Positions 2 to 49,449 of a DNA stretch of 64,000 bases are shown here, piece after piece. The translations under genes were made by a program, and so were the position numbers. The notes below the pieces were generated by a model. That model was not told where the DNA came from, searched no databases, and saw nothing but the letters and a program-made list of their open reading frames with translations. The DNA comes from a bacterium (GTDB lineage Bacteria > Omnitrophota > Gorgyraeia > Zapsychrales > Zapsychraceae): the NCBI GenBank assembly GCA_030429765.1, contig JAUIER010000016.1, positions 38,017-102,016 on the forward strand, in the 5' to 3' direction. Position 1 is the stretch's first letter. Each line of letters starts with the position of its first letter.

Positions 2-3000
2 GACTTTGACGGTTCACGACGCGTCTATCTGGAATCCAACCGGAATGTGACCGGCAGTTGGCGGCGGGAATTGCAGCCGGCCACGTTTGTGGAAAATCGC
101 GGCGGTCGCGCGGTTTACGAATTCAAAGTCCGGGCCCAGCGAAGCTTCGACTACAACTTTGTGTTTGTCAATGCCGACGGAACCGAGGAGTGGACGGATA
201 TTCCTTTTGGAAATCACACGGTTGAAGTCAAGAAACAGTATACGGCCGATGTTGTCTTTGTGGGGATGGAGCACAAACTCTTCGCGAAGGTTGGTGGATT
301 GGCGGATGTCATGCATAGTCTTCCCCGGGCGTTTGCCAAGTCCGGCAATGACACCACCGTTATCCTGCCACATTTTAAAAATTTAGACTATCAACTGGAA
401 GAATATGGATTCGAGGATGTGCCGGGTTTTGAGATTGAGATTCCTTTTAGACAAAGAGACAATGTTCGCCTGAAGGCCAAGCAGGCAATCGTCGAGGGAG
501 TCAAAGTCTATATTCTTGACGCCGAGACCGATGACTTATTCGGACAAATTTATAAAGATAACCGTAATATCTTTTTAGAATCTATCTTATTGTCACGTGG
601 CTCATTAGAGCTGCTCAGACATCTGGGCCGTCCGGTCAGTGTCATTAACTCCGCGGATCATCACGCCGCATTGGTTCCCCTATATATGGAAACCTTGTAT
701 AAGGATGACTTTAGTGAGACGGGTAGTGTTTTCACGATTCATAACTTTAGAAGTCAGGGAGATTATCCGCTCGAATGGTACGAAGAACTGGGTATGCCGT
801 TCGATGATGAATTGTATTATTCGTTCGCCAAGTATGGGCGAATCAATATGTTGAGCGTGCCCGGTGAGCTTTTACATCGGGTTGGAAAGGGGCATTACGT
901 TAATACTGTAAGCCAAGGTTATGCGCAGGAAATCCGTGAGGTGTTCTCGGATGTGGCTAATCTATACAGTGAGGCCGGTATACGTTTCGGCGGAATACTC
1001 AACGGGTTGGATTTTGAGGCCTGGGATCCTAACACCGATCCCAACATTGCCCGTAATTATTCATTGAGTGACGGGGCCGAATCCATTAAGGCCGCGCGCG
1101 AGCGGAACAAGAAGGAACTTCAATGGATTCTCTCACCAGAGGGAGACAAATCCTTAATCAAGCTTAAGGATCCGGCCAATGTTCACGGGGAGCTCACGAC
1201 CGAATCGGATCGTTTATTGGTGGGGGTGGTATCACGTCTGGATTCGCAAAAGCAGATTGATATCATCGCTGATATGCTCGAAGACATGTACGCCGGACGA
1301 CGGCCCGCATTGAATATTGACGTGCTAATAAATGGAACCGGTGATCCGGCTTTAACGCAGCGGCTTGCCGAAATCGCGTCGGACGCGCGTAAGCACAATA
1401 TCGGTATCTCGGTTGTATTTGTCAATGAGTACCTGCAGGTCTTGACCCAAAAGCTAATGGCGGGGGCGGATGTGCTTTTGATTCCATCCTATTTTGAGCC
1501 ATCCGGATTGACACAGATGCAGGCGATGCGCTACGGGGCTGTACCGGTTGTTCGACGGACAGGAGGGTTGGCTGATACGGTTTTCGAAGATCCCGAGCAT
1601 TGGAACGGATTTGTCTTCGAGGGCGCGGACCGGCTGCTTCATGATGAAGTCGAGGATATGAACCGACGCAAGATCAACACCTCGGGATTGTATGACGCGG
1701 TTTCCCGGGCGCAGGATGTTTATTACAATGATCCCGAAACATGGACAACAATTGTCGAGCAGGGAATGTCCGAAGAAAACGACTGGAACCGCAGCCTGAA
1801 CGATTACATGAATGTCTATGGATGGCTTTATGATGAGCGTCATCAGGATGTGCGGGGCGGGACGATATTGTCGGGTGACCAGGTTGTTAAAGACAAAGAC
1901 ACAGTGGTGCTTCGCGTCGCGGCGCACAGCCGCAGCAAGTCCCGTCGGGTGTATCTGCATTCCAACCGTAACGTGCTGGGCGAATGGGTTACAGACAAAA
2001 CTCCCGCGCGCTACGTCGAAACCATCGACGGGCAGGATATTTTTGAAGTCGAAGTCCAGGCGCGCCGAAATTTCGAATATACATTTGCCTTTGATTACGG
2101 CAACGATGATATTGTCTTTCTGGAACATAGTGAAGGCTATCCCAAGGTCACCATTGAGTCTGAGTTTACGGGAGCGGTGGCGTTTGTCGGCATGGAGTTT
2201 GGACCGCTCGTGAAAGTCGGCGGACAGGGTGATGTGATGTTTGAATTACCCAAGGCTTTGGTCAAATCCAACAAAGAGGTAGCCGTGGTGCTGCCAAAGT
2301 TTGACATACTTGAAGAAAAGTTGGCGGGTAAGGAGTTGGTCGAGATTGAAGATTGGAAGATGACGATTCCGTTTGAATATCGGGACGATGTCACGTTGCG
2401 GGCGTATGAAACGGATCTCGATGGTGTCAGGGTCATACTTATTGACGCTGATGCGCCGGATTTATTTATCCGGCCATATAATGTGGCTGAGGATGGTTCT
2501 CGCGATAGCGAATTTTATGAATCTATTTTATTGTCGCGGGGAAGTCTTGACGTACTACGGCATTTGAAGCGCGCAGGCAGTCTCGATGTTGATGTTATCA
2601 ATTCGGCGGACCATCATACGGCGCTGATCCCGCTTTACATGCGGCATACCTATGCCGAAGATTTCGCACGCACCGGCAATGTGTTTACGATCCATAATAT
2701 CGGCTATCAAGGTCGTTATGAACCGGAAATGTATTCGGAACTTGGGTTGGACGAATCGTTGCGGGATATGGTGCAAATCGGCGACGAGCTAGTTTTTATG
2801 GGGGTTCCACCCACCGTGATCAACCGATTAGGCAAGGAAGGCAACTATATCAATACCGTCAGTTCCAGTTATGCCAAGGAAACGCGACCGACACAGTTTG
2901 GACTGAACACGTCAGTGTTGCAATCTGTGGGCAATCGCTACGGCGGAATTCTGAACGGACTAGATTTTGACGTGTGGGATCCGGCCACGGATAAAATGAT

Positions 3001-6000
3001 CCACACCAACTACAGCATTACCGATGGCATGGACGCGGTATTGGAAGCCCGGGCGCAGAATAAACGCGAACTACAGGAGATACTTTCCGGCGAGGGTGAC
3101 CTCAGCGAGATCGGGATCAAGGATCTCAAGAATTTTAGCGGTCGGTTACGGGTGGGGTCGGATCGCATGCTTGTCGGGCTGGTTTCCAGATTGGTAGGGC
3201 AGAAGCAGATTGATATTATCGCCGACATGATTGATGACATGCTCAATGGCCGCAAAGAACAAATATCGGTCGATTTTGTTCTCAACGGTACCGGCGACTC
3301 GGATATCGAACAGCGATTGGCGGAGCTGGCAAAGAAAGTTGAAGAGGCGGGGTTAGACATGTCCTTTGCGTTTGTGAATGAATATCTTCAACCGGTCACA
3401 CAGAAGATTATGGCGGGCGCCGATGTGGTCCTGGTTCCGTCGGACTATGAGCCGAGTGGATTGACTCAAATGCAGGCCATGCGTTACGGGGCGGTGCCGG
3501 TTGTGCGTAATACCGGTGGATTAGCGGATACAGTCCATGAGCTGGGAGATAACTGGAGCGGTTTTGTCTTCGATGGTGTGCCGCGATTACTGGAGAATCC
3601 TGACGTCGATCAACGCCGTCGTCAGCAGAATGCCGATGATCTGTTCCTGGCCATCCGACGGGCGAATGAGGTTTATGTCAATGATCGTGAGCAGTGGCAT
3701 AAAATCATCAATACGGCGATGCGCGCGGAAAACGACTGGTCGCGCAGTTTGGGTGACTATCTCAATGTGTACACGTGGCTCACTGATGAGTTAAAACGTA
3801 AGGCCGATCCGGGCTTTGCGAAGATGTCCCGTACATTGTCGGCCAGTTATCAGGAATATCTGCGATCTGATCCTGAGCCCGGACGACCATTTGTCGTCGC
3901 GGTCAAAGGTAATTATGCCAGCGGCAAGTCAATGATGCGGCGGGCGCTGATGGATGAATTGGAAAAATTCGGACTGGTCGTCGATTTTGTCCACGATGAA
4001 TTTTATTTTGATGATCCAGCCGGTTACCACAGCATCGCTGATGCCGTTCGGTTGAAGAATGGTGTCAACATTCTGATTTATGAAATTGAACGGTATTTGC
4101 CGACGGGCGCCGATGAGATTGATATGTACATAGAGACCCGTAGCGAATTATCAACGGTCAAGCGTCGTATTGCGGCTGACAGCAAGAAATGGGAGGACCT
4201 GGAAGAACGGGTCCTGGCCAGCATGTCGGCTGAAGGGTTTAGCGCGTTGACGCCGGATGTCAGTATTCAGTTGGACACTCAATTAACGGATGACGAGTTT
4301 CGCGAATTCATCGGTGAGGGACTGGTGGAGATGAGCTTTACCAAAGCCCCGCCGGCCCGAGATTCCACGGCCAATGCGCGGTTGATGTCAGATACTCCCG
4401 CTGAGCTCACCAAAGAACGCCTTCGGGGGATTATCGAGCAACGGATGCCGTCGCGAACCAGTGGTGTATTGACGCATGTCAGTTCCTTGGACAGCGAATA
4501 CGGCATTGGTGACTTTGGTCCTTCAGCCCGCCGGTTTGTAGATTTTCTCATCGCGTCCAATCAGGATGTCTGGCAGGTTCTGCCACTGAATCCGACCGAC
4601 GCGGAGTTTAATCACTCCCCGTACAGCAGTGATTCCTCATTTGCGCTTAATCCATTGTTTGTGAGTCCAGACGATCTGGTTGAAATGGGTGTGTTGTCAT
4701 CCGAACAGATCACGAAATTCAGACGGCCGAATAATCGATTTGTCGACTACGACGCGGTCTCGGCTAACAAGCGGGAAATGCTTCGGCTGGCGTTTGACCA
4801 GCGTGAAGACGGACCCGGTGTGGTGCAGAAGTTTAAACGATTCAAAGCGCTTCACCGTGACTGGCTGGATCGATACGTGATGTACAGGGCGATCAGTGCG
4901 GCGCATGAAGGCCGGTCCTGGAATGAGTGGCCTGAAGGTCTGCGGGATCGACGGGCCAAAGCGTTGGTCGATTTCCGTGTTGATCATAAAGATGAAATTG
5001 AGTACTACGCGTTCGAACAGTTTTTGTTGTTTGAGCAATGGGGTAAGCTTCAAAAATATGCGCAGAAGGCGGGGGTCAAGATTCTGGGGGATCTTCCGTT
5101 GTATGTCAGTTATGACAGTGCTGATGTGTGGTCGAATAAAGAATTGTTTAATCTCGACGATGATTACAATCCAATCACTATATCCGGTGTGCCTCCGGAC
5201 GCCTTCAGCGCGGACGGACAGAAGTGGGGACATCCGACCTTTCATTGGCGTCGTATGCAGGCAAATGGATACCGTTGGTGGATGGAGCGAATCGCGCATA
5301 ATTTGCAGCTGTATGATCAGGTCCGCTTGGATCATTTCCGCGGACTGGTTCAGTACTGGTCTATTCCGGCCGATGCTGAGTCAGCCAATGCCGGGCATTG
5401 GGAACAGGCTGGAGATCAACACTTCTTCAGCTTGATAATTCAGCGTTTTGGCGTGGGACGTTTGATTGCTGAAGATTTGGGTGAGATCACACCGGACGTC
5501 ATAGAGGTACTCGAGCAGCTGGGTATCCGGCGCATGAAGATTCTTCAGTTTGGATTTGACGGTGAAAATCTCAGGGACAATACGTTTTTCCCGGAAAATT
5601 ATGACGAGAATTCCGTCGCCTACACCGGAACGCATGACAATAACACGATTCGCGGATGGTTCCGTCACGAACTTGGCGATCAAGCCCGTGAGAATCTACA
5701 ACGATTTCTGGGTAAAGATTTGATGGAGGAGCAGATCCACTGGGACATTATCCAGGCGGCGATGCGCTCGGGCGCTGAGACCGTGATCTTTCCACTGCAA
5801 GATGTATTCGGACTGGATGAATCCTCACGCATGAATTTGCCAGGGGTTGCCGCAGGTAACTGGACCTGGAGGATCAGCAGTGCGGATATGGATGCCGACA
5901 CCGTGCGGGAATTGGGAACGCTCAAGGCCACCACCCGTCCACCGCAGATAAAGTTGATGCGATCGGTCGGTATGAATCTGGTGAGCCGGGCGAGTAAATT

Positions 6001-6538
6001 CTTACGCGACAATAACTATGACGCACTGGCCCAAGAGCTAGAGCAGTTCAGCCGGCAGAATCGGATCAGAGAATGGGACTTCCGGCGTTTTGCCGCGGCG
6101 ACCTACAAAGATGATAACAATACAGAGTACATTTTGACTTCATCTGTTGATAGTGACGGTAAGAGGCTATCTGAAACTCAAAGGATTGCCAATTTGATCT
6201 TTGCTATCGGGGCCACGCAGAATTTTAATTTGGATGTGGATGTCAATGAGCGTCGTATGCAGGCCTATCTGGATCGTGCGATGAGCGCGGATACGGATGT
6301 CGGGGGGATCGATTTGAATCCGGATCTCATTCAACTGAACGTTGAGGGTGAGATGCCGTCCAATAATGCATTGAAGTACCCGTATGAGCTGCCGGTTCCC
6401 GTCGACATCAAGGGATTTGTGCCGGTAATTATTCAGATATCACCCGTACCGAACATACTCAATTATATGGGTGTAAACCTTCAACCCGGTGAGGTGCCGG
6501 GATACAATGATCAGCAACGGCTTTCGGCCGTTCGTTAA
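2..6538 (+). CDS. Giant multidomain alpha-glucan biosynthetic enzyme, 5'-partial. Domains in order: a starch-binding-like beta-sandwich, a glycogen/starch synthase GT5 module, a second beta-sandwich, a second GT5 module, a P-loop domain, a 4-alpha-glucanotransferase GH77 (amylomaltase) and a C-terminal module.
   Basis: There is no in-frame stop between nt 2 and the GTG at 47. The upstream frame reads SRRVYLESNRNVTGSW, which matches the internal repeat SRRVYLHSNRNVLGEWV at ~nt 1940, so the gene continues off the window. Glycogen-synthase motifs occur twice: KVGGLADV and KVGGQGDV, FTIHNFRSQG and FTIHNIGYQG, and EPSGLTQMQAMRYGAVPVVR(R/N)TGGLADTV. GH77 motifs are present: YGIGDFGP, WQVLPLNPT, SPYSSDSSFALNPLF, LDHFRGL, IAEDLGEITPDV, YTGTHDNNT and GNWTWR. 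Confidence 0.85.
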   Translation, partial: DFDGSRRVYLESNRNVTGSWRRELQPATFVENRGGRAVYEFKVRAQRSFDYNFVFVNADGTEEWTDIPFGNHTVEVKKQYTADVVFVGMEHKLFAKVGGLADVMHSLPRAFAKSGNDTTVILPHFKNLDYQLEEYGFEDVPGFEIEIPFRQRDNVRLKAKQAIVEGVKVYILDAETDDLFGQIYKDNRNIFLESILLSRGSLELLRHLGRPVSVINSADHHAALVPLYMETLYKDDFSETGSVFTIHNFRSQGDYPLEWYEELGMPFDDELYYSFAKYGRINMLSVPGELLHRVGKGHYVNTVSQGYAQEIREVFSDVANLYSEAGIRFGGILNGLDFEAWDPNTDPNIARNYSLSDGAESIKAARERNKKELQWILSPEGDKSLIKLKDPANVHGELTTESDRLLVGVVSRLDSQKQIDIIADMLEDMYAGRRPALNIDVLINGTGDPALTQRLAEIASDARKHNIGISVVFVNEYLQVLTQKLMAGADVLLIPSYFEPSGLTQMQAMRYGAVPVVRRTGGLADTVFEDPEHWNGFVFEGADRLLHDEVEDMNRRKINTSGLYDAVSRAQDVYYNDPETWTTIVEQGMSEENDWNRSLNDYMNVYGWLYDERHQDVRGGTILSGDQVVKDKDTVVLRVAAHSRSKSRRVYLHSNRNVLGEWVTDKTPARYVETIDGQDIFEVEVQARRNFEYTFAFDYGNDDIVFLEHSEGYPKVTIESEFTGAVAFVGMEFGPLVKVGGQGDVMFELPKALVKSNKEVAVVLPKFDILEEKLAGKELVEIEDWKMTIPFEYRDDVTLRAYETDLDGVRVILIDADAPDLFIRPYNVAEDGSRDSEFYESILLSRGSLDVLRHLKRAGSLDVDVINSADHHTALIPLYMRHTYAEDFARTGNVFTIHNIGYQGRYEPEMYSELGLDESLRDMVQIGDELVFMGVPPTVINRLGKEGNYINTVSSSYAKETRPTQFGLNTSVLQSVGNRYGGILNGLDFDVWDPATDKMIHTNYSITDGMDAVLEARAQNKRELQEILSGEGDLSEIGIKDLKNFSGRLRVGSDRMLVGLVSRLVGQKQIDIIADMIDDMLNGRKEQISVDFVLNGTGDSDIEQRLAELAKKVEEAGLDMSFAFVNEYLQPVTQKIMAGADVVLVPSDYEPSGLTQMQAMRYGAVPVVRNTGGLADTVHELGDNWSGFVFDGVPRLLENPDVDQRRRQQNADDLFLAIRRANEVYVNDREQWHKIINTAMRAENDWSRSLGDYLNVYTWLTDELKRKADPGFAKMSRTLSASYQEYLRSDPEPGRPFVVAVKGNYASGKSMMRRALMDELEKFGLVVDFVHDEFYFDDPAGYHSIADAVRLKNGVNILIYEIERYLPTGADEIDMYIETRSELSTVKRRIAADSKKWEDLEERVLASMSAEGFSALTPDVSIQLDTQLTDDEFREFIGEGLVEMSFTKAPPARDSTANARLMSDTPAELTKERLRGIIEQRMPSRTSGVLTHVSSLDSEYGIGDFGPSARRFVDFLIASNQDVWQVLPLNPTDAEFNHSPYSSDSSFALNPLFVSPDDLVEMGVLSSEQITKFRRPNNRFVDYDAVSANKREMLRLAFDQREDGPGVVQKFKRFKALHRDWLDRYVMYRAISAAHEGRSWNEWPEGLRDRRAKALVDFRVDHKDEIEYYAFEQFLLFEQWGKLQKYAQKAGVKILGDLPLYVSYDSADVWSNKELFNLDDDYNPITISGVPPDAFSADGQKWGHPTFHWRRMQANGYRWWMERIAHNLQLYDQVRLDHFRGLVQYWSIPADAESANAGHWEQAGDQHFFSLIIQRFGVGRLIAEDLGEITPDVIEVLEQLGIRRMKILQFGFDGENLRDNTFFPENYDENSVAYTGTHDNNTIRGWFRHELGDQARENLQRFLGKDLMEEQIHWDIIQAAMRSGAETVIFPLQDVFGLDESSRMNLPGVAAGNWTWRISSADMDADTVRELGTLKATTRPPQIKLMRSVGMNLVSRASKFLRDNNYDALAQELEQFSRQNRIREWDFRRFAAATYKDDNNTEYILTSSVDSDGKRLSETQRIANLIFAIGATQNFNLDVDVNERRMQAYLDRAMSADTDVGGIDLNPDLIQLNVEGEMPSNNALKYPYELPVPVDIKGFVPVIIQISPVPNILNYMGVNLQPGEVPGYNDQQRLSAVR

Positions 6539-6576: not shown

Positions 6577-9500
6577 ATGTCAAACGTATCTAAAAATCAA
6601 AAATTTAAAATTTGGGCCGCAGCCGCCCGGCTGATCATTGCGATGACGTTTATGCTATCGTCCGTAATGCCGGCAGGAATGGCGTTGGCGGACATTGATC
6701 GTTCAACGCTGGACAATATGAATATGGTACAGCCCGGCTCAATCGTCCGGCTGAGCGAGGCCTTTGAACCGGTCGTTCTTAAAGGGATCAATATTCGACC
6801 GGACCAGCCGTACACATTTGACTTTTTGGTCGATACCAACGGACACGACATGTCCGACGCCGAGTTTGAAGCGGAGTCGCAGAAGTTGATTAAGTATTTT
6901 TTGGCGTCGCTGACCATCCCCGAACAGGATATGTGGGTCAACTTGTCGCCATACGAAGCCAATCGCATGATCCCTGAAAGTTTTGGTCAAACCGAGATGG
7001 GACGTGATTTGCTGGCGCAGGATTATATGCTCAAGCAATTGACGGCTTCCTTGATGTATCCGGAAGATGAGTTAGGTCAAAAATTCTGGTCGCGGGTGCA
7101 AGACCTGGCGAACGAACAGTTCGGTACGCATGAACTGCCGATGAAGACATTTAACAAGGTCTGGATCGTTCCCGAGCAGGCGCGGGTTTATGAACATGAA
7201 CGCGGCGCGGTTGTGGTTGAGAGTTACTTGAATGTCATGTTGGAAGAGGATTACCTGGCGCTGGAAGCCAACGCAGGACGCACCAATCATGGTCTTGGTG
7301 ATGTCAGTGCGGATGAGCTGGTATCCAAGCAGGATGTATCCACGCGGGTAATCCGCGAGATTATTATACCTGAGATCGAACGTGAAGTGAACTCGGGTGA
7401 AACCTTTGCGAATCTCCGACAAATCTACAACTCGATGATCCTGGCAGTCTGGTACAAACGGGTCCTCAAAGAAAGTCTGTTAGGACAGATCTACATGGAC
7501 AAAGGTCGTGTCGAGGGAATTGCCCAGCCGAGTATTGAAGACAACCAAAAAATTTATGACATGTACGTCGAGGCGTTTAAGCGCGGTGTTTACAATTACA
7601 TCAAGGAAGATGTGGATCCGGCGACGAATCAGGTTGTCCCGCGGCAATATTTTTCCGGCGGTGCAGTCCCAATTACAGATCAGGCCGTGCTCGTCGAGCG
7701 CACAACCGCCGAAGAAACGCGGGCTGAACTGGAGCGAAGTCAAGTCCGGATGCTGACTGTCCGTATGGGACGTGTTCCGGACGTTAAACAAGACTACGCG
7801 GTGCTGGCGCAGGATCCTGAGCTTCAGCAGTTCTTAAGTGAGATTCGCGAGCCATCGAATAACGCCTTTACGGATATTTCGTTAGAAGCGGCGATCGCGG
7901 AACTCGAAGGTGAGGCCGAAGGAGCGCTCGGTAAAGGCGGTTTGGGATTCCTGACCGGTGATACGTGGGGAGCCTACAAGCATCTGAGTACGTATAGAGG
8001 TCTGGGCGTCATGCCATTGTATGATCGTCATTATAATCCCGGATCTGAATCGATTGATTGGGACAATCAGCCAGGCATTAAGCCGTTTATAGATCAATCG
8101 ACCGGAGAAGTTTTAACGTTCAATGTGGATTTCAATCTAGGCAGTTTTCCGGTTCAGATCTATTGGGTTAACCGAAACGGGATGCCAGTCTTTCTGATCC
8201 GCTCCGCCGACTTTTTCGGACAATTGTATCCCGGGGGCAACGCGCAGAAGCAGCAGTACGGTTTCTTGGCGCGAGCTTATGTGGAGCTCATGAAGAAACT
8301 GGAGATTGCTCCAAAGATTGTACGCTTAAGTGAGGGGCAGCTGGTTTTTGTTGGAACGGCTATGAAGAATGACGTGAAACATTTTAAAAATAATGGCGGT
8401 GAGAGTGTCTTTGACCAGGCCAAGATCGTATTTACAACGCATACGCCCGAAGCAGCGGCGTTGCCGATCTTTTATGACCTGGATGAGCTTGAGAATTTGG
8501 TCGGGCGGGATTTGTTCGAAGATATCATCGAGAATGGTCGAGTCAATGCAGCCAAGGCCCTGGCCGACATGGCGGATATCGTCAACGGTGTATCTGAAGA
8601 GCATGGTTCTGTAACCAAGGTTGCCGTGTTGCCCGAGTTCCGCAACAAAACCACTGCGATTCAAAACGGTAATGAAGAGGCGACGTGGTATTCCGGCCGA
8701 TTACGCGAGCATGTGGAAACAGTCGGGCTGGCCAATGTTACCGGTAAGGATCTCTTTGATATCGGCACAGAGATCAAACAAAATGATCTACAGCAATTGT
8801 TGCAGGATGAGTTCGGTGTAAAGTTTGCCGATCCGTCGAGGCCTCTGGTCGGTCTTGTTCGTCGACTGGTCGCTTATAAGGAACAGCAGATGTTCATTCC
8901 ATTGGTGAAATGGATTGTAGGTGACCCGAACAAGGATTACTACCATGATGAAACCGGTGACTATCTCGGCAAAGGGCTGGGAGCGAACCTCTTGATCGGA
9001 GGGCATTCGCTGGACGATGTCTCGCCGGTTTGGGTGCGTGAGTTCCGCCGGTTGATGCAGGAAGAAGATGTCAAAGGTAAGTTTCTTTATGTGGCCGGTA
9101 CCGGAATTGAATTGCGAAAACTGGCGGTAGCCGGTTCTGATATCTGGGTCAGTATTCCACGACCGACGCGTGAGGCTTCCGGAACCTCGGATGGAGCCGC
9201 TGCCCTGAATGGAACCGTCAATATTGCCACGGCAACGGGCGGTCCGCTGTCCTATATTAAGCATCGAAAAAATGGATGGCTTATCGATGTGTTTGCCGGA
9301 CAATCGCTGGATAATGTCACCCTGCGGTTTGATCAGGGGGATCACGATATTATCAAGGAATTTCAGTATGAAGGCGGAAGACAGCTGGCGACCGCACTGC
9401 GCGAATCGACCGAACGCCTAAACGATTACACGAGGCGCGGAAACACAGAGTGGTTAAAAACCATGCGCGCGTCGTTTACCGCGTCGCATCGTGAGGTGTC

Positions 9501-9858
9501 AATCGGGGTCATGATCCGCAAGTACGGACTGCTTTTTGACAGTGTCCTGGATGGGTCCGGAGCCGAGGGCTTTCGTGAGAAGATGGCTGCCTTCGACTTT
9601 ATCCCTGAGGGTGTCGAAACCGATTCGGCCTTACTAGCCGGTAAACCGGATGAGGTCGGGGGGATCGATTTGAATCCCGAGACCATGAATCTTTTGGTCG
9701 ACCGCGAAGGCCAGGGCTTGGTGGTTCCAGAATGGAAACCGATACCGGGCAGCGAGCGGATCCTCGGACTTCAGCCGATCATCCTCAATGTGACGCCTGT
9801 CGTCAATCTACCGCTGATTCTGGGGCTGAAAACCGTCGACACAGAGGCCGATGGCTAA
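6577..9858 (+). CDS. Alpha-glucan phosphorylase (GT35) homologue. It has an N-terminal signal or anchor, a ~430 aa unknown N-domain and a C-terminal module shared with the preceding gene. It is possibly non-catalytic, because there is no lysine in the EASGT motif.
   Basis: GGLGFLTGD...GLGVMPLYDR matches the GGLGxLAGD...LLYR motif of short alpha-glucan phosphorylases. TTHTPEAA and VNGVSEEHG are also present. EASGTSDGAAALNG occurs where EASGTSGMKAAMNG is expected. The N-terminus is KNQKFKIWAAAARLIIAMTFMLSSVMPAGMALA. An RBS (AGGAGA) precedes the ATG. Confidence 0.65.
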   Translation: MSNVSKNQKFKIWAAAARLIIAMTFMLSSVMPAGMALADIDRSTLDNMNMVQPGSIVRLSEAFEPVVLKGINIRPDQPYTFDFLVDTNGHDMSDAEFEAESQKLIKYFLASLTIPEQDMWVNLSPYEANRMIPESFGQTEMGRDLLAQDYMLKQLTASLMYPEDELGQKFWSRVQDLANEQFGTHELPMKTFNKVWIVPEQARVYEHERGAVVVESYLNVMLEEDYLALEANAGRTNHGLGDVSADELVSKQDVSTRVIREIIIPEIEREVNSGETFANLRQIYNSMILAVWYKRVLKESLLGQIYMDKGRVEGIAQPSIEDNQKIYDMYVEAFKRGVYNYIKEDVDPATNQVVPRQYFSGGAVPITDQAVLVERTTAEETRAELERSQVRMLTVRMGRVPDVKQDYAVLAQDPELQQFLSEIREPSNNAFTDISLEAAIAELEGEAEGALGKGGLGFLTGDTWGAYKHLSTYRGLGVMPLYDRHYNPGSESIDWDNQPGIKPFIDQSTGEVLTFNVDFNLGSFPVQIYWVNRNGMPVFLIRSADFFGQLYPGGNAQKQQYGFLARAYVELMKKLEIAPKIVRLSEGQLVFVGTAMKNDVKHFKNNGGESVFDQAKIVFTTHTPEAAALPIFYDLDELENLVGRDLFEDIIENGRVNAAKALADMADIVNGVSEEHGSVTKVAVLPEFRNKTTAIQNGNEEATWYSGRLREHVETVGLANVTGKDLFDIGTEIKQNDLQQLLQDEFGVKFADPSRPLVGLVRRLVAYKEQQMFIPLVKWIVGDPNKDYYHDETGDYLGKGLGANLLIGGHSLDDVSPVWVREFRRLMQEEDVKGKFLYVAGTGIELRKLAVAGSDIWVSIPRPTREASGTSDGAAALNGTVNIATATGGPLSYIKHRKNGWLIDVFAGQSLDNVTLRFDQGDHDIIKEFQYEGGRQLATALRESTERLNDYTRRGNTEWLKTMRASFTASHREVSIGVMIRKYGLLFDSVLDGSGAEGFREKMAAFDFIPEGVETDSALLAGKPDEVGGIDLNPETMNLLVDREGQGLVVPEWKPIPGSERILGLQPIILNVTPVVNLPLILGLKTVDTEADG

Positions 9859-10012: not shown

Positions 10013-10393
10013 ATGGTCGTCAGCTGCAAACAAATGAGGCATATCTGTAGTACAGTGATACTATCTTTGGCCGTTCTGGCCAGCACGGGACAGGCCGATG
10101 TTCGTCCGTTGACCGATGAGGAAATGGAGGAGATCGTCGCCGCTAACCTTCCGGTCGTTTCACCTGACAAAATCAACGCTGAGTTTTCCAGTCAAATAGC
10201 AGAGCTTGTCCAGACCATCACGGGTATCATCAATACTGGGATCAGTTCGGCGCTGGACAGCCAGGGCGGTTTAGTTCATATTAATGCCCTGAATTCCACG
10301 GCCAACGTGCAGATCAACTTTACGATCGGTGATCAACAGGCCGGGACATCCATCTACCAGTCCAATACCTATAATCCAACCAACAACCGATGA
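10013..10393 (+). CDS. Small secreted protein of unknown function
   Basis: An AAGGGGTGA RBS precedes the start. There is an internal signal peptide, ICSTVILSLAVLASTGQA. The stop overlaps the next gene's start (ATGA). Confidence 0.5.
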   Translation: MVVSCKQMRHICSTVILSLAVLASTGQADVRPLTDEEMEEIVAANLPVVSPDKINAEFSSQIAELVQTITGIINTGISSALDSQGGLVHINALNSTANVQINFTIGDQQAGTSIYQSNTYNPTNNR

Positions 10394-10884
10394 ACCGACG
10401 CACACGACAGTACGCGCATTTGAGACCATTGATTCGGACAGCGGGAGATTATCTGTCTATCCTGTTTCTCGTGACGGGTATCAGTGGTTGCACGCTCAAT
10501 GAACCGCCGTATGAGTATCTGCCGGATGGTACGTTTAGTTACAAGACCGGTCCGATTCCGGTGATGGAATCGGTCAGTGATCCGAATACGTACAAGGGTT
10601 ATGTTCAAATGAAGGTCAAGTTTAAGGCCGATGAATACACGGCGAGCAATAAATTTGATCAAGGCGGCAGTGTGTTTGTGTCATTTTGGGTCGATTCAAG
10701 CGGGCATGTCGTCAAGGTCAAAGTGGTGCCTGAAAGTTCCAGCGCGCCGAAAGCATTGTACAAGCCGGCCGAACAGATCATCTACGACGCCGGGCCGTTC
10801 AAGCCCTTTCCGGAGGATATCAAATCCTCGACGCTGCAGTTTAATCTGATCATCAACTTCAAAGTTTCCGATCCCGATCAATAA
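10390..10884 (+). CDS. Lipoprotein with a TonB-C-terminal-like domain
   Basis: The lipobox is LVTGISGC. The C-terminal region GGSVFVSFWVDSSGHVVKVKVV...PFKPFP resembles the TonB_C fold. Confidence 0.45.
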   Translation: MNRRTRQYAHLRPLIRTAGDYLSILFLVTGISGCTLNEPPYEYLPDGTFSYKTGPIPVMESVSDPNTYKGYVQMKVKFKADEYTASNKFDQGGSVFVSFWVDSSGHVVKVKVVPESSSAPKALYKPAEQIIYDAGPFKPFPEDIKSSTLQFNLIINFKVSDPDQ

Positions 10885-14183: not shown

Positions 14184-15029
14184 ATGAAGAAATTGCCATT
14201 TTTTATGGTCCTAAGTCTAGTTATGGGGCTAGCAGCAACACAAGCTAGCGCGCAGCCTTATGCTGGACCAGTGGCGGCAGACAGTTGTGAAACCGAGGCG
14301 GGAAGTGCTGCCGGAGTTGCCACACCTTGTCAACCTGAACCAAACCAGAATGTCTACCAAGCTATCGAAAAAATTCTAGCCGAAGCGGGAGCTCCGTCGT
14401 TAGGATTGGATTCGAATGCCGATACAGACAATCTGCAGATTCTAGATAACGGATATTGGGATGTTCTAGGCGGCGGTGATCCATCAAACGTTGCGGTTAT
14501 CGCCATCGGAGCAGCCAACACAAACACATTGGGTGTTTATCCTTTCGGAAACCCGGCGGGTGTTGTTGATATCGTCCCTGCGCAAACTGGATTCCAGTTT
14601 TTAGGCGACGGAACAGCCGGTAACCCATACCCAGGTGGAACGATTAACCTAGCGACAAATTTCGGTTTCTCGCTAAGAAGTAACTTCGGATCAGGTGAAG
14701 ATATCTGGTATTCAGATCCAACACTAAACTCCGATGGTATCGATCACATGATGGCGTTCGCACTACCTTCACTTGACGGGACATCACTATTCATCGACCT
14801 AAACGGAACACCAACTGAAATTACTTTCGGTACCGGTACAGTTCTATTGGGTTGGGAAGATGTTTCAATGGGAGTTAGCTCTTCATCAGACTACGATTAC
14901 AACGATACGCTTTTCCTAATCTCAAACCTTGATAATCCAACGAATGTTGTTCCAGAGCCGCTATCAATGGTTCTTTTCGGAACAGGACTAGCTGGAATGG
15001 CCGGGTTGAGACGTCGAAAAGTTGCCTAA
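14184..15029 (+). CDS. PEP-CTERM sorting-domain secreted protein
   Basis: There is a strong RBS, AGGAGGAAGAAATG, and a signal peptide. The C-terminus VPEPLSMVLFGTGLAGMAGLRRRKVA is the canonical PEP-CTERM pattern: motif, TM helix, basic tail. Confidence 0.85.
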   Translation: MKKLPFFMVLSLVMGLAATQASAQPYAGPVAADSCETEAGSAAGVATPCQPEPNQNVYQAIEKILAEAGAPSLGLDSNADTDNLQILDNGYWDVLGGGDPSNVAVIAIGAANTNTLGVYPFGNPAGVVDIVPAQTGFQFLGDGTAGNPYPGGTINLATNFGFSLRSNFGSGEDIWYSDPTLNSDGIDHMMAFALPSLDGTSLFIDLNGTPTEITFGTGTVLLGWEDVSMGVSSSSDYDYNDTLFLISNLDNPTNVVPEPLSMVLFGTGLAGMAGLRRRKVA

Positions 15030-20281: not shown

Positions 20282-21775
20282 ATGAAGATCGATCATATTA
20301 AAGAACTACTAGAGTACGCGATAGAGCAAGAAGCCTCAGATGTCCATTTGGTCGTTGGAAGTCCTCCTGTAATCCGTGTCCATGGTGATATGACCGCAGT
20401 CGATGCGGATGTCCTGACCGATGAATCCATTCAAAAGCTGATCTATGACCTGCTCAACGAGGAGCAGAAGCGTAAATTGCACGAGAATCGTGAGCTGGAC
20501 AGTTCCTATGCCTACCGCGAAGACTACCAGTTTCGGGTCAATGCCCATTTTGAAAAAGGGCATATGGGATCCACCATTCGAATTACCCCATTGAACATCG
20601 ATACGATTCTGAGATTCGGACTTCCACCCGAGCTCAAAGACATTGCGCATCGGCACAAGGGTTTGTTTGTCGTTTCCGGAACTTCAGGAAGCGGGAAGAG
20701 TACCACGTTGACGTATATCGTCAATATGATCAACAACATGCGCAAGGCCAAGATCATCACGGTCGAGGATCCGATCGAGTACACCCATAAATCCAAACAA
20801 AGTCTTATCATTCAACGCGAAGTTTCGGTTGATACACCTTCATTCGCCAGTGCGTTAAAGTATTCATTGCGACAAGACCCGGACGTTATCGTTATCGGGG
20901 AAATCCGTGATTACGAGGCGATTTCTATGGCGTTGACCGCCGCGGAAACAGGTCACTTGGTATTAACGACCGTTCACGCGCCGGATGCGGTCGAAACCCT
21001 CAACCGTATCATCGACGTATACCCATCGGGATACCGAGAACAAATTTGTGCTCAGCTGGGGGGTAACTTAATCGGTGTTTGCTCGCAGACGCTTATTCCG
21101 AAAAAGGATTCGTCGGAACGGATCATGGCCACCGAATTGTTGCTATCAACGATCTCCATACGTAACCTGATCCGCCGCGGGGCGTTTACGGAATTGCGGG
21201 GTCAATTAGACTCTGAAGAAGATTCGCCGACGCACACCTTTGAGCGCTGTTTGTCTCGGCTCGTGTTAGATGGGAAGATTACCCGTGAAACTGCCGAATC
21301 GCACGCGCGATATCCTAATCTGTTGCAATTAGGTAATGAGCAGACATTTAAATTTAACACCTCGGCCAAGAAGGAAGGCAAGCGTTTGACGGCCGATGGG
21401 CGCGAAATCGATATGAATATCGACAAGGTATTTATTGTTGATCGAAGTGAAAAAGACAAGATCGAGATGGGCAAAGTTTTTAAAGATATCGGCTATATTA
21501 ACATTACCTATATTGCCAAGGGGGCTGATGCTTACGATAAAATTCTAGTGGAAAACCCTGTTATTGTCGTATTGGACACATTTTTTCCTGATGTGGACAG
21601 CTTTAATCTTTGCAAGATGATCAAGGACAATCCTGATCTGAATACGAAGGTCATTATGGTGACCGGAAACTTGCAGCCAACGGATCTGGAAGATGCAAAA
21701 TCTGCTGGTGCGGATGATTTTGTGGTTAAAACGTATCAGTATGATCTGTTAAGGAAAACGTTAGAACAACTGTAG
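20282..21775 (+). CDS. pilT: PilT/PilU-family type IV pilus retraction ATPase with a fused C-terminal receiver (REC) domain
   Basis: The Walker A is GTSGSGKSTT. Other PilT blocks are IITVEDPIEY, DPDVIVIGEIRD and AAETGHLVLTTVHA. A C-terminal ~120 aa region, KVFIVD...VVLDTFFPDVD...VIMVTG...VVKTY, has the CheY-like residue pattern. Confidence 0.8.
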   Translation: MKIDHIKELLEYAIEQEASDVHLVVGSPPVIRVHGDMTAVDADVLTDESIQKLIYDLLNEEQKRKLHENRELDSSYAYREDYQFRVNAHFEKGHMGSTIRITPLNIDTILRFGLPPELKDIAHRHKGLFVVSGTSGSGKSTTLTYIVNMINNMRKAKIITVEDPIEYTHKSKQSLIIQREVSVDTPSFASALKYSLRQDPDVIVIGEIRDYEAISMALTAAETGHLVLTTVHAPDAVETLNRIIDVYPSGYREQICAQLGGNLIGVCSQTLIPKKDSSERIMATELLLSTISIRNLIRRGAFTELRGQLDSEEDSPTHTFERCLSRLVLDGKITRETAESHARYPNLLQLGNEQTFKFNTSAKKEGKRLTADGREIDMNIDKVFIVDRSEKDKIEMGKVFKDIGYINITYIAKGADAYDKILVENPVIVVLDTFFPDVDSFNLCKMIKDNPDLNTKVIMVTGNLQPTDLEDAKSAGADDFVVKTYQYDLLRKTLEQL

Positions 21776-49211: not shown

Positions 49212-49385
49212 ATGTCCAAGCAAGAAGAACGCTGCGATTGCGGCAAATTGCTGTTCAAGCTCACCCCGCGAGGGTTAGAATTTAAGTGTAACCGCTGCAA
49301 AGAGATCCATTTGGTTCCCTTGTATCGGATAGACACTGAATTTCGCAATATCTGTCCGGTTATTGACCAGACGCACAAAAAATAA
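49212..49385 (+). CDS. Com-family (phage Mu Com-like) zinc-finger small protein, 57 aa
   Basis: MSKQEERCDCGKLLFKLTPRGLEFKCNRCKEIHLV matches the Mu Com signature C-x-C-x-KLLFK...C-x-RCK. It is not in the supplied ORF track because it is shorter than 60 aa. Confidence 0.55.
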   Translation: MSKQEERCDCGKLLFKLTPRGLEFKCNRCKEIHLVPLYRIDTEFRNICPVIDQTHKK

Positions 49386-49449
49386 CCGCAGAGACTCGAG
49401 ATCACGAATCCTAAGTCCAAAACAAAGATGTCGAAAGAAAGGAAAGACT

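What the first reader, a model, noticed from the sequence alone, without database searches (positions are those of the whole stretch)
6299..6321. Identical 23-nt stretch encoding VGGIDLNP shared by the synthase fusion and the phosphorylase homologue (copy 1)
GTCGGGGGGATCGATTTGAATCC occurs at 6299-6321 in the first gene and again, base-for-base, at 9655-9677 in the second gene. In both genes it opens a homologous ~70 aa C-terminal module. The first gene reads DVGGIDLNPDLIQLNVEGEMP...GFVPVIIQISPVPNILNYMGV. The second reads EVGGIDLNPETMNLLVDREGQGL...LQPIILNVTPVVNLPLILGLK. The shared pattern is P[VI]I[IL][QN][IV][ST]PV[PV]N[IL].

Two otherwise unrelated enzymes of the same pathway carry the same terminal tag. 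This suggests a targeting, docking or co-assembly module. Candidates are anchoring to a glucan granule, to a membrane or compartment, or recognition by a sorting or processing system. It does not match the PEP-CTERM, GlyGly-CTERM, LPXTG or T9SS C-terminal domains I know.
Basis: seen in the sequence. Interest (0 to 1): 0.8.

Follow-up and report, generated by a model that had tools for sequence, protein, structure and literature searches.

The report
Omnitrophota C-terminal tail of a bipartite cassette
The repeated 23 bases encode the invariant core of an undescribed ~65-residue C-terminal domain that, always paired with a signal peptide and a conserved ~340-residue N-terminal domain, brackets thousands of otherwise unrelated 'cytoplasmic-type' enzymes in the candidate phylum Omnitrophota, which suggests a phylum-specific protein targeting or assembly system.

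Summary
The 23-mer occurs exactly twice, in frame, near the 3' ends of two adjacent genes. The two ~70-aa tails are homologous.

The tail is not specific to glycogen enzymes. It is a phylum-wide C-terminal domain with the consensus GGIDLNP..LDLQIKRDGxGxPLP..QP....I.GF.PVIINVTP..NLP.LLG, followed by an acidic extension. An exhaustive profile search found 5,959 protein clusters. In every listed hit the domain ends 2-78 residues from the C-terminus.

Every complete gene examined that carries the tail also starts with a Sec-type signal peptide and a strongly conserved ~340-aa N-terminal domain. Gene 2 of the window has both. Gene 1 runs off the window edge. The cargo between the two caps is arbitrary: glycogen enzymes, PGK, hexokinase, PGM, PPDK, DnaJ, histidine-kinase ATPase, response regulators and radical SAM.

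Neither cap matches Pfam, NCBIfam, PADLOC, PHROGs, PDB sequences or PDB folds. I found no description in the searchable literature.

The base-for-base identity itself has no nucleotide-level meaning. Codons differ in the closest relative and across the phylum.

Best reading: a cargo-independent C-terminal sorting or docking module that acts after Sec export. This mechanism is inferred, not shown.

The parts
6299..6321 (+). 23-mer copy 1, encoding V-G-G-I-D-L-N-P(artial), the invariant core at the start of the gene 1 tail
   Evidence: Exact match; in frame.
9655..9677 (+). 23-mer copy 2, the same peptide at the start of the gene 2 tail
   Evidence: Exact match; in frame.
2..6538 (+). Gene 1, with its 5' end outside the window. 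It is a fusion of at least 2,178 aa: weak CBM20-like region, GlgA, GlgA, P-loop-like linker, MalQ (GH77), tail.
   Evidence: ORF list and translation; Pfam and NCBIfam. The orthologue on L001 is 4,026 aa with GlgB in front.
6287..6508 (+). C-terminal domain (tail) of gene 1: DVGGIDLNP...GFVPVIIQISPVPNILNYMG. An extension ending QQRLSAVR follows at 6509-6535.
   Evidence: Tail profile E=1e-15, residues 2096-2169 of the frame-2 segment; extension motif.
6577..9858 (+). Gene 2, complete at 1,093 aa: signal peptide, N-terminal domain, GT-B phosphorylase-like cargo, tail
   Evidence: AlphaFold model.
6577..6690 (+). Sec-type signal-peptide-like N-terminus of gene 2. It has a basic n-region, a hydrophobic h-region and the site ...AGMALA|D.
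   Evidence: Sequence; family-wide n/h/c pattern; helix 8-30 in the model.
6691..7692 (+). Conserved N-terminal domain of gene 2 (~340 aa), the obligatory partner of the tail. It has no known family or fold.
   Evidence: N-domain profile E=9e-166. It shows 50-60% identity to N-termini of proteins with unrelated cargo. No Pfam, NCBIfam or PDB match.
7805..9606 (+). Cargo of gene 2: a GT-B fold, alpha-glucan-phosphorylase/GT5-like domain that lacks the PLP lysine
   Evidence: NCBIfam TIGR02094 scores 77 bits, below its cutoff. pLDDT >90. Motif EASGTSDGAAALNG.
9643..9846 (+). C-terminal domain (tail) of gene 2: EVGGIDLNP...GLQPIILNVTPVVNLPLILG, plus a short acidic end
   Evidence: Tail profile E=6e-21, residues 1023-1090 of the protein.

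Best explanation
The 23-mer encodes the invariant GGIDLNP core of a ~65-residue C-terminal domain. This domain is the 3' cap of a bipartite, cargo-independent cassette specific to Omnitrophota. The order is: Sec-type signal peptide, conserved ~340-aa N-terminal domain, arbitrary cargo (0.24 to >5 kaa of enzymes or regulators), C-terminal domain, acidic extension.

Shown:
- The architecture and its strict coupling.
- Its C-terminal position.
- Its independence from cargo.
- Its restriction to one phylum, and its multi-copy and often tandem occurrence.

Inferred:
- The proteins are exported co-translationally by Sec/SRP.
- The tail then acts as a C-terminal sorting or docking signal. It would be recognised in trans, either by a conserved receptor or machinery or by N-terminal domains of the same family.
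- This would retain, translocate or assemble the cargo in the envelope, on the cell surface or towards a host cell.

On this reading, gene 1 (GlgB?/GlgA/GlgA/MalQ fusion) and gene 2 (phosphorylase-like) are two clients of one trafficking or assembly system. They are not two proteins tagged for glycogen.
For: Prevalence and position:
- A tail profile of 50 sequences, run exhaustively with HMMER against 1.84 billion representatives, found 5,959 clusters at E<=1e-3 and 2,803 at E<=1e-10. In all 150 listed hits the domain ends 2-78 aa from the C-terminus.

Coupling to the N-terminal domain:
- 116 of the 122 sequences scanned (120 N-domain-bearing homologues of gene 2, plus gene 2 and gene 1 of the window) carry the tail.
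- 51 of 55 tail-bearing representatives of >=1000 aa carry the N-domain at residues ~20-360.
- In 79 genomic loci, 53 complete ORFs have both. Three more are split by frameshifts. The two apparent tail-only ORFs are 3' pieces of broken genes.

Cargo independence:
- Pfam on members finds PGK, hexokinase, ROK, PGM, DnaJ, HATPase_c, response regulator, radical SAM, M23, methyltransferase and PPDK. The precomputed Pfam accessions listed with the hits, named from my own knowledge of those accessions, add PGI (PF00342), UDPGP (PF01704), FBPase (PF00316), GGDEF (PF00990), TetR_N (PF00440) and HEAT_2 (PF13646).
- P0210 shares only the tail with gene 1.

Export signal:
- 133 of 141 N-termini have a positively charged n-region, and the h-region has mean Kyte-Doolittle hydrophobicity (KD) of 2.27.
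- 131 of 141 have a small-x-small site near residue 37, followed by Q in 94.
- 132 of 149 members have no further TM-like segment.

Taxonomy:
- All 79 loci come from MAGs labelled Omnitrophota, 'uncultured Planctomycetales', 'Planctomycetales bacterium' (2 loci) or 'uncultured bacterium' (1 locus). There are several per MAG and they are often tandem.
- None were found in 2.9 million viral contigs.

Structure prediction:
- The tail is not folded in the gene 2 monomer model (pLDDT <45). This is as expected for a signal that folds on a partner.

Context from the literature:
- Published work on Omnitrophota giant proteins reports the same cargo modules. It predicts signal-peptide or extracellular topology without explaining it (10.1101/2023.11.21.568195; 10.64898/2026.06.07.730766).
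- Chlamydia, in the same PVC superphylum to which Omnitrophota is assigned (PMC10407285), secretes GlgA and PGM and accumulates glycogen in the inclusion lumen. This rests on the titles and abstracts of PMC3722199, PMC4829429 and PMC9251005.
Against: - No machinery was identified. No neighbour gene recurs in more than 8 of 79 loci.
- Much of the cargo needs ATP, ADP-glucose or DNA (glycogen synthase, hexokinase, PGK, TetR, response regulators). Such cargo makes poor sense outside a cytoplasm unless the destination is a host cell. Export itself is predicted from sequence heuristics only, because no SignalP or DeepTMHMM was available.
- The tail lacks features of known sorting signals. It has no TM helix plus basic tail, and no fold match to the T9SS CTD.
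- In the P0047 model the tail reaches pLDDT 56-85. This could mean it packs in cis.
- About 86 of 141 new representatives are short proteins with a tail but no N-domain. I treat them as gene fragments, but cannot prove it.
Confidence: 0.5

Rival explanations
1. Split-domain or intramolecular clasp. The N-terminal domain and the tail are two pieces of one ancestral ~420-aa protein. Cargo was inserted at a Gly-Gly loop: the N-domain ends with invariant YFSGG and the tail starts with invariant GGID. The tail folds back onto its own N-terminal domain, which closes the protein into a loop. The composite domain is then the functional unit, as an anchor, oligomerisation unit or enzyme.
For: - Near-absolute co-occurrence of the two caps.
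- YFSGG at the end of the N-domain and GGI at the start of the tail are both conserved at >=90%.
- In the AlphaFold model of P0047 (45-sequence alignment) the tail has pLDDT 56-85 while the adjacent cargo is below 45. This suggests the tail packs against something ordered.
Against: - In the gene 2 model the tail is unstructured (pLDDT <45).
- Mutual-information analysis of 175 unique N-domain/tail pairs puts only 3 N-domain/tail pairs among the top 100 couplings, although such pairs make up 31% of all pairs.
- No cargo-less member was seen among about 350 proteins or ORFs. The smallest gap between the caps is 238 aa.
- Model coordinates could not be inspected.
Confidence: 0.22
2. C-terminal membrane anchor. 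The hydrophobic stretch GFVPVIINVTPxxNLPLLLG inserts into a membrane as a tail anchor or re-entrant hairpin. Together with the N-terminal hydrophobic helix it would tether both ends of the protein to the inner membrane.
For: - The 19-residue Kyte-Doolittle average reaches >=1.7 in the tail of 40 of 149 members.
- The family's N-terminal helix is strongly hydrophobic.
- The 2026 preprint reports that 94% of the long proteins (>=10 kaa) in its catalogue carry TM helices or a signal peptide.
Against: - The segment carries three near-invariant prolines and two conserved asparagines.
- It is followed by an acidic, not basic, extension.
- 109 of 149 members fall below the TM threshold.
- The conserved GGIDLNP..KRDGxG..PLP part upstream would be unexplained.
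Confidence: 0.1
3. Glycogen-specific tag. The tail binds alpha-glucan or a glycogen granule and co-localises the enzymes of that pathway.
For: Both window genes encode alpha-glucan enzymes. Many family members carry GT5, PGM or UDPGP domains.
Against: - The same tail is found on DnaJ, histidine-kinase ATPase, response regulator, radical SAM, M23 peptidase, PPDK, PGK and hexokinase proteins.
- There is no match to any CBM model.
- It is strictly coupled to a signal peptide and N-domain regardless of cargo.
Confidence: 0.03
4. Nucleotide-level feature or artefact. The 23-mer would be a recombination or regulatory site, a slippery G6 run, or an assembly duplication.
For: The exact identity of 7 synonymous codon choices has a naive probability of about 5e-4. 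The GGG GGG pair is shared by both genes here and in L001.
Against: - The flanks are diverged and both reading frames are intact.
- The closest relative differs at 4 of 23 positions between its two copies.
- Codons vary across 61 tails.
- Orthologous tails are more similar than paralogous ones, so there is no concerted evolution.
Confidence: 0.02

Closest known systems
T9SS cargo architecture of Bacteroidota (Sec signal peptide + cargo + ~80-aa C-terminal domain)
   Same: - An N-terminal Sec signal, often with Gln after the cleavage site (Q-rule, PMC5837995).
- Arbitrary cargo.
- A small conserved domain at the extreme C-terminus, present on many proteins per genome in a single phylum.
   Different: - No sequence match to Por_Secre_tail or other CTD models.
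- An additional obligatory ~340-aa N-terminal domain.
- The cargo is of the cytoplasmic type.
- No T9SS genes were tested or seen.
LapA/RTX-adhesin type T1SS substrates (N-terminal retention module + variable body + C-terminal secretion signal)
   Same: Bipartite logic: a conserved N-terminal module and a conserved C-terminal signal bracket a very long variable body. The C-terminal region is acidic.
   Different: - T1SS substrates lack Sec signal peptides, whereas this family has one.
- There are no RTX nonapeptide (HemolysinCabind) hits.
- GGIDLNP does not fit GGxGxDxUx.
PEP-CTERM/exosortase, LPXTG/sortase and related C-terminal sorting signals
   Same: A short conserved motif followed by a hydrophobic stretch at the C-terminus of signal-peptide-bearing proteins. 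These signals are multi-copy and lineage-restricted.
   Different: - The motif is followed by ~45 structured residues.
- The hydrophobic stretch is rich in Pro and Asn.
- The terminus is acidic rather than a basic cluster.
- A bona fide PEP-CTERM protein in the same window (14184-15029) is detected by Pfam, while the tails are not.
Omnitrophota giant 'Archaeovorin' / multi-enzyme proteins (West-Roberts et al. 2023 preprint; 2026 complete-genome preprint)
   Same: - Same phylum.
- Same cargo repertoire: GT5 starch synthase, GT1, PGM, PGI, FBPase, PPDK, HEAT, HATPase_c, response regulator, radical SAM, ROK.
- Same predicted signal-peptide or extracellular topology.
   Different: - Those studies treat proteins of >=10-30 kaa and say the N-terminal regions 'lack identifiable domains'.
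- They do not describe the conserved N-terminal domain or the GGIDLNP tail.
- Whether the giants carry the caps was not testable here.
Secreted glycogen enzymes of Chlamydia (PVC superphylum)
   Same: Housekeeping glycogen-pathway enzymes are equipped with secretion signals and act outside the bacterial cytoplasm. GlgA is found in the inclusion lumen and host cytosol (PMC3722199). Glycogen is stored and made de novo in the inclusion lumen (PMC4829429). PGM is a type 3 secretion substrate (PMC9251005). Secretion of GlgB, GlgP and MalQ is from my own knowledge of PMC4829429 and was not read here.
   Different: Chlamydia uses N-terminal type III signals on otherwise ordinary single-domain enzymes. 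There is no Sec peptide, no shared N-terminal domain and no C-terminal tail.

Membership tests
PEP-CTERM (PF07589 / exosortase substrates) | Match to the PEP-CTERM model: PEP motif, TM helix and basic cluster at the C-terminus | tested here: not met
   No Pfam or NCBIfam hit for either tail at E<=0.1. The same library detects PEP-CTERM in the window protein at 14184-15029. The tails end in acidic or neutral residues.
T9SS C-terminal domain (Por_Secre_tail and related) | Sequence match to CTD models | tested here: not met
   No Pfam or NCBIfam hit for the tails or the full proteins.
T9SS C-terminal domain (Por_Secre_tail and related) | Compact 7-stranded Ig-like beta-sandwich fold | tested here: inconclusive
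LPXTG / sortase substrates | LPXTG-like motif, then a hydrophobic helix and a positively charged tail | tested here: not met
   No such motif is present and there is no Gram_pos_anchor hit. The host is a diderm, with TonB, TBDR and Pom porin in the window.
T1SS / RTX C-terminal secretion signal | Absence of an N-terminal Sec signal, with GGxGxDxUx repeats upstream of the C-terminal signal | tested here: not met
   The family has a Sec-like signal peptide. There is no HemolysinCabind hit. The single GGIDLNP motif does not fit the nonapeptide.
Dockerin / cohesin (cellulosome-type assembly) | Dockerin Ca-binding repeat (PF00404) | tested here: not met
   No Pfam hit in the tails or in 57 family members scanned.
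Carbohydrate-binding module (glucan or granule anchoring) | Match to a CBM family, and restriction to carbohydrate-active cargo | tested here: not met
   No CBM hit in the tails. The tail occurs on many non-carbohydrate cargos.
New Omnitrophota N-cap/C-tail family (defined here) | Tail profile match within ~80 aa of the C-terminus | tested here: met
   Gene 1 E=1e-15 and gene 2 E=6e-21. The tails end 9 and 3 residues before the stop.
New Omnitrophota N-cap/C-tail family (defined here) | Signal peptide plus N-terminal domain profile at residues ~20-370 of the same protein | tested here: met
   Met for gene 2 (E=9e-166). Not testable for gene 1, whose 5' end lies outside the window. Its L001 orthologue is also cut.
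Alpha-glucan phosphorylase GT35 (gene 2 cargo) | PLP-binding lysine in the EASGTxNMK motif, and a score above family cutoffs | tested here: not met
   The motif is EASGTSDGAAALNG in the window protein and EASGTSDQRAGFNG in relatives. TIGR02094 scores 77 bits against a cutoff of 191.7. The canonical motif is from my own knowledge.

The most novel reading that the evidence does not exclude
Omnitrophota possess a previously unrecognised, phylum-specific protein trafficking or assembly system. Its clients are marked by a signal peptide plus N-terminal domain at one end and the GGIDLNP tail at the other. Through it, a large part of central sugar metabolism, glycogen metabolism and signalling enzymes is placed outside the cytoplasm, in the periplasm, on the cell surface or inside the prey or host cell. 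The size range would run from 0.7-kaa single-enzyme proteins up to the giant multi-enzyme proteins. This would give a molecular handle on how these ultra-small epibionts exploit hosts. It would also explain why 'cytoplasmic' enzyme domains in the giant proteins are predicted to be extracellular.
Probability: 0.3. Interest if true: 0.9.

Novelty: new variant of a known kind. Interest (0 to 1): 0.72.

Why it matters
Omnitrophota are widespread, uncultivated, ultra-small, host-dependent bacteria. Their giant multi-enzyme proteins are an open puzzle. Published analyses predict signal peptides and extracellular topology for domains that normally work in the cytoplasm, and offer no explanation.

The tail found here and its N-terminal partner define a single, easily searchable architecture covering at least ~6,000 protein clusters. 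This turns a vague puzzle into testable questions:
- Are these proteins exported?
- Is the tail cleaved?
- What binds it?
- Which genes co-vary with it?

It also supplies two new domain families for annotation. If the tail is a transferable targeting signal, it offers a candidate tag for protein display or delivery. For genome annotation, enzymes carrying these caps should not be assumed to contribute to cytoplasmic metabolism.

Tried and rejected
Searches that found nothing:
- A word-index search with the two window tails alone found nothing. The exhaustive profile search was needed instead.
- The search for related loci with the 50-sequence tail alignment failed because no stretch was conserved enough. 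An 8-sequence alignment worked.
- Pfam, NCBIfam, PADLOC and PHROGs have no family for the tail or the N-domain.
- PDB sequence searches with single sequences and with profiles returned nothing but coiled-coil noise in cargo linkers.
- Viral contigs hold no relatives.
- Literature searches for the motif strings and for descriptions of the caps found nothing relevant.

Fold searches on the P0047 model:
- Foldseek versus PDB gave no E<=1e-3. ClyA/MakA/MakB-family toxins recur at noise level (E>=0.08, probability <=0.08). I do not count this as evidence.
- The afdb50 library was not available.

Other analyses that led nowhere:
- Aligning 91 full-length members failed internally.
- Neighbourhood clustering in 79 loci, looking for a dedicated processing or secretion gene, found nothing recurrent. 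The maximum was 8 loci, for a response regulator. Rhomboid-like genes occur in 4.
- Mutual information between the N-domain and the tail showed no enrichment of couplings.
- An attempt to see the 5' end of gene 1 through relatives failed. P0121 starts at the GlgA domain, the L001 orthologue is cut by the locus edge, and P0210 is unrelated apart from the tail.

Rejected readings:
- Assembly artefact, nucleotide-level element, glycogen-granule tag, and low-complexity linker.
Full report
**Observation.** The 23-mer GTCGGGGGGATCGATTTGAATCC occurs exactly twice, at 6299-6321 and 9655-9677 on the + strand. No further matches exist at up to 3 mismatches, and none is expected by chance. Both copies are in frame as VGGIDLNP near the 3' ends of two adjacent genes.
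- Gene 1 is an ORF open to the left window edge that ends at 6538. It is at least 2,178 aa and reads GlgA-GlgA-P-loop-like linker-MalQ.
- Gene 2 spans 6577-9858 and is 1,093 aa.

The tails are homologous: BLASTP E=2e-8. The flanking DNA is diverged, so the repeat is not an assembly artefact.

**Is the nucleotide identity meaningful?** Given the same peptide, seven identical codons have a naive probability of about 5e-4 with this window's codon usage. Three results argue against a nucleotide-level element.
- On the closest related contig (L001, whose gene 2 orthologue is 72% identical) the two copies differ at four synonymous positions.
- Across 61 tails from other genomes the codons vary freely.
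- Orthologous tails (47-59% identity) are closer than the two paralogous tails (27-35%), so there is no concerted evolution.

The identity therefore reflects an invariant peptide plus coincidence, or at most a micro-conversion.

**What the tail is.** A word-index search with the two tails alone found nothing. Searching with full-length gene 2 returned more than 4,300 proteins. All but three of the named hits are labelled Omnitrophota or Omnitrophica. Three are labelled only 'hydrothermal vent metagenome' and one is assigned to a Heimdallarchaeota archaeon, probably a binning error. These proteins share only the first ~365 residues of gene 2, at 50-60% identity, and are otherwise fused to very different domains. 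Of the top 120, 79 end in a GGIDLNP...PVIINVTP...LLLG tail by pattern. With a profile, 116 of the 122 sequences scanned (those 120 plus the two window genes) carry the tail.

The consensus is ..VGGIDLNPALLDLQIKRDGKGVPLPVSQQPIENMNIEGFVPVIINVTPITNLPLLLG. Near-invariant positions are G-G-I, the G of GF, two prolines, an isoleucine and the final G. A 12-45-residue acidic extension follows. One large subclass ends ...KAREPEEISALN-COOH, and many others contain an [E/R/Q]LS motif. Gene 1 ends QQRLSAVR.

An exhaustive HMMER search with a 50-tail profile against 1.84 billion representatives found 5,959 clusters at E<=1e-3 and 2,803 at E<=1e-10. In all 150 listed hits the domain lies 2-78 residues from the C-terminus, in proteins up to 5,808 aa. 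In the window's six frames, only genes 1 and 2 carry the tail and only gene 2 carries the N-terminal domain.

**Strict pairing with an N-terminal cap.** Among tail-bearing representatives of >=1000 aa, 51 of 55 have the N-terminal domain at residues ~20-360. A scan of one genome per GTDB species gave 278 confirmed tails under very restrictive patterns. The 79 loci fetched all come from MAGs labelled Omnitrophota, 'uncultured Planctomycetales', 'Planctomycetales bacterium' (2 loci) or 'uncultured bacterium' (1 locus). One MAG contributes up to five loci, and the genes are frequently tandem. In these loci 53 complete ORFs have both caps. Three more are split by a frameshift. The two apparent tail-only ORFs are the 3' pieces of broken longer genes.

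The many short tail-only database entries are most simply gene fragments, but this is not proven.

Gene 1's 5' end lies outside the window, so its N-cap cannot be checked. Its L001 orthologue is 4,026 aa (GlgB-GlgA-GlgA-MalQ) but is cut by the locus edge.

**The N-terminus looks like a Sec signal peptide.**
- 133 of 141 members have a positively charged n-region.
- The h-region is strongly hydrophobic (mean KD 2.27 over 15 residues).
- Roughly half of the members (75 of 141) have a PP in the c-region. A small-x-small site near residue 37 occurs in 131 of 141, followed by Gln in 94.
- Gene 2 reads ...PAGMALA|DIDR.
- 132 of 149 members have no other TM-like segment. A minority has one just after the N-domain.

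These are heuristics of my own. No dedicated predictor was available.

**Cargo.** Pfam scans of members find PGK, hexokinase, ROK kinase, PGM, DnaJ, HATPase_c, response-regulator receiver, radical SAM, M23 peptidase, DUF218 and methyltransferases. In a 4,030-aa member they find PPDK plus a methyltransferase. Precomputed Pfam accessions listed with the hits, which I name from my own knowledge of the accessions, add PGI (PF00342), UDPGP (PF01704), FBPase (PF00316), GGDEF (PF00990), TetR_N (PF00440) and HEAT_2 (PF13646). The 4,030-aa protein shares nothing with gene 1 except the tail (BLASTP E=1e-7). The tail is therefore cargo-independent and not a glycogen tag.

**Comparison with known families.**
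- Neither cap matches Pfam, NCBIfam, PADLOC or PHROGs.
- The same Pfam search does detect a genuine PEP-CTERM protein at 14184-15029.
- PDB sequence searches are empty for both caps.
- AlphaFold2 of gene 2 (33 sequences) gives a confident GT-B cargo, a moderate N-domain and an unstructured tail.
- AlphaFold2 of the short member P0047 (45 sequences) gives an N-domain at pLDDT 75-93 and a tail at 56-85. The N-domain has a mixed alpha/beta fold with a long beta-hairpin.
- A mutual-information analysis of 175 paired sequences shows N-domain/tail couplings depleted among the strongest pairs: 3 of 100 against 31% expected.
- No neighbouring gene recurs in more than 8 of 79 loci.
- No relatives occur in viral contigs.

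**Literature.** Searches for the motif strings found nothing. Two preprints on Omnitrophota giant proteins describe the same cargo modules: starch synthase GT5, GT1, PGM, PGI, FBPase, PPDK, HEAT, HATPase_c, receiver, radical SAM and ROK. Both predict signal-peptide or extracellular topology, which the authors find puzzling. One states that the N-terminal regions lack identifiable domains. Neither describes these caps (10.1101/2023.11.21.568195; 10.64898/2026.06.07.730766). The phylum-level study PMC10066038 does not mention them.

A precedent for exporting glycogen-pathway enzymes exists in Chlamydia, which belongs to the same PVC superphylum that Omnitrophota is assigned to (PMC10407285). GlgA is found in the inclusion lumen and host cytosol (PMC3722199). 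Glycogen is stored and made in the inclusion lumen (PMC4829429). PGM is a type 3 secretion substrate (PMC9251005). I saw only the titles and abstracts of these three papers.

**Interpretation.**
- Shown: an undescribed, Omnitrophota-restricted, bipartite architecture, consisting of signal peptide, N-domain, any cargo, C-tail and acidic end. The window's two genes are members of it.
- Inferred, most likely (about 0.5): after Sec/SRP export, the tail serves as a C-terminal sorting or docking signal recognised in trans. This would retain, translocate or assemble the cargo in the envelope, on the surface or towards a host.
- Main rival (about 0.2): the tail folds back on its own N-domain, with cargo inserted at a YFSGG|GGID junction of an ancestral protein.
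- Lesser rivals: a C-terminal membrane anchor (about 0.1). A glycogen tag and a nucleotide-level element are both effectively refuted.
- The chief difficulty for any export model is that much of the cargo needs ATP, sugar nucleotides or DNA. The difficulty disappears only if the destination is another cell's cytoplasm, or if the N-terminus is not an export signal.

**Verdict.** The module is an undescribed domain family of a known general kind, a terminal targeting or assembly module, with an unusual bipartite form and an unusual clientele.

Noticed in passing
window 9172-9213 (gene 2 residues 866-879): The 'phosphorylase homologue' has EASGTSDGAAALNG where GT35 phosphorylases have EASGTGNMKFMLNG, so the PLP-binding lysine is absent. 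Relatives have Arg at that position. The protein scores far below phosphorylase family cutoffs. It is probably a PLP-independent GT-B enzyme. [quoted passage not shown]
   Followed up: partly
window 14184-15029 (+): A 281-aa protein with a signal peptide, a DUF4114 domain and a bona fide PEP-CTERM sorting signal (...VPEPLSMVLFGTGLAGMAGLRRRKVA). The organism therefore also has an exosortase-type sorting system, distinct from the GGIDLNP tail.
   Followed up: partly
window 20282-21775 (+): A type II/IV secretion ATPase (T2SSE) is fused to a C-terminal response-regulator receiver domain. This fusion is unusual. Its relation to export of the capped proteins is unknown.
   Followed up: no
window 2-6538 and L001 1-9964: Gene 1 is a multi-enzyme glycogen 'assembly line' in one polypeptide (GlgA-GlgA-P-loop-MalQ). 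Its orthologue is 4,026 aa and also contains a branching enzyme (CBM48 + alpha-amylase). It falls in a size continuum that runs towards the giant Omnitrophota proteins described in preprints.
   Followed up: partly
family-wide, e.g. gene 2 residue 39 region; P0034, P0050, P0210 N-termini: The predicted signal-peptidase site is followed by Gln in 94 of 131 family members (...A-x-A|Q). This resembles the Bacteroidetes 'Q-rule' (pyroglutamate N-termini), which was reported as specific to Bacteroidetes. Two other signal-peptide proteins in the window (14184 and 29657) also have Q at +1, while others do not.
   Followed up: partly
C-terminal extensions of family members, e.g. P0171, P0175, P0232; window 6509-6535: After the LLLG end of the tail there is an acidic extension. 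A large subclass has a conserved extreme C-terminus ...KAREPEEISALN-COOH. Others have a recurrent [E/R/Q]LS motif, and gene 1 ends QQRLSAVR. This may be a third signal, for example a protease or PDZ ligand. An HtrA-like PDZ protease lies at 32140-33639.
   Followed up: partly
window 25189-26841 (+), 10390-10884 (+), 49363-51747 (+): A Pom-family porin (Protochlamydia outer membrane protein family), a TonB C-terminal domain protein and a TonB-dependent receptor. These indicate a diderm PVC-type envelope, which is consistent with the assignment to Omnitrophota.
   Followed up: no
P0047 res 411-436, P0078 405-425, P0282 407-425, P0090 390-411: A minority of family members have one strongly hydrophobic, TM-like segment immediately after the N-terminal domain. 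That would put their cargo and tail on the opposite side of the membrane from the N-domain. The topology of the family may therefore not be uniform.
   Followed up: no
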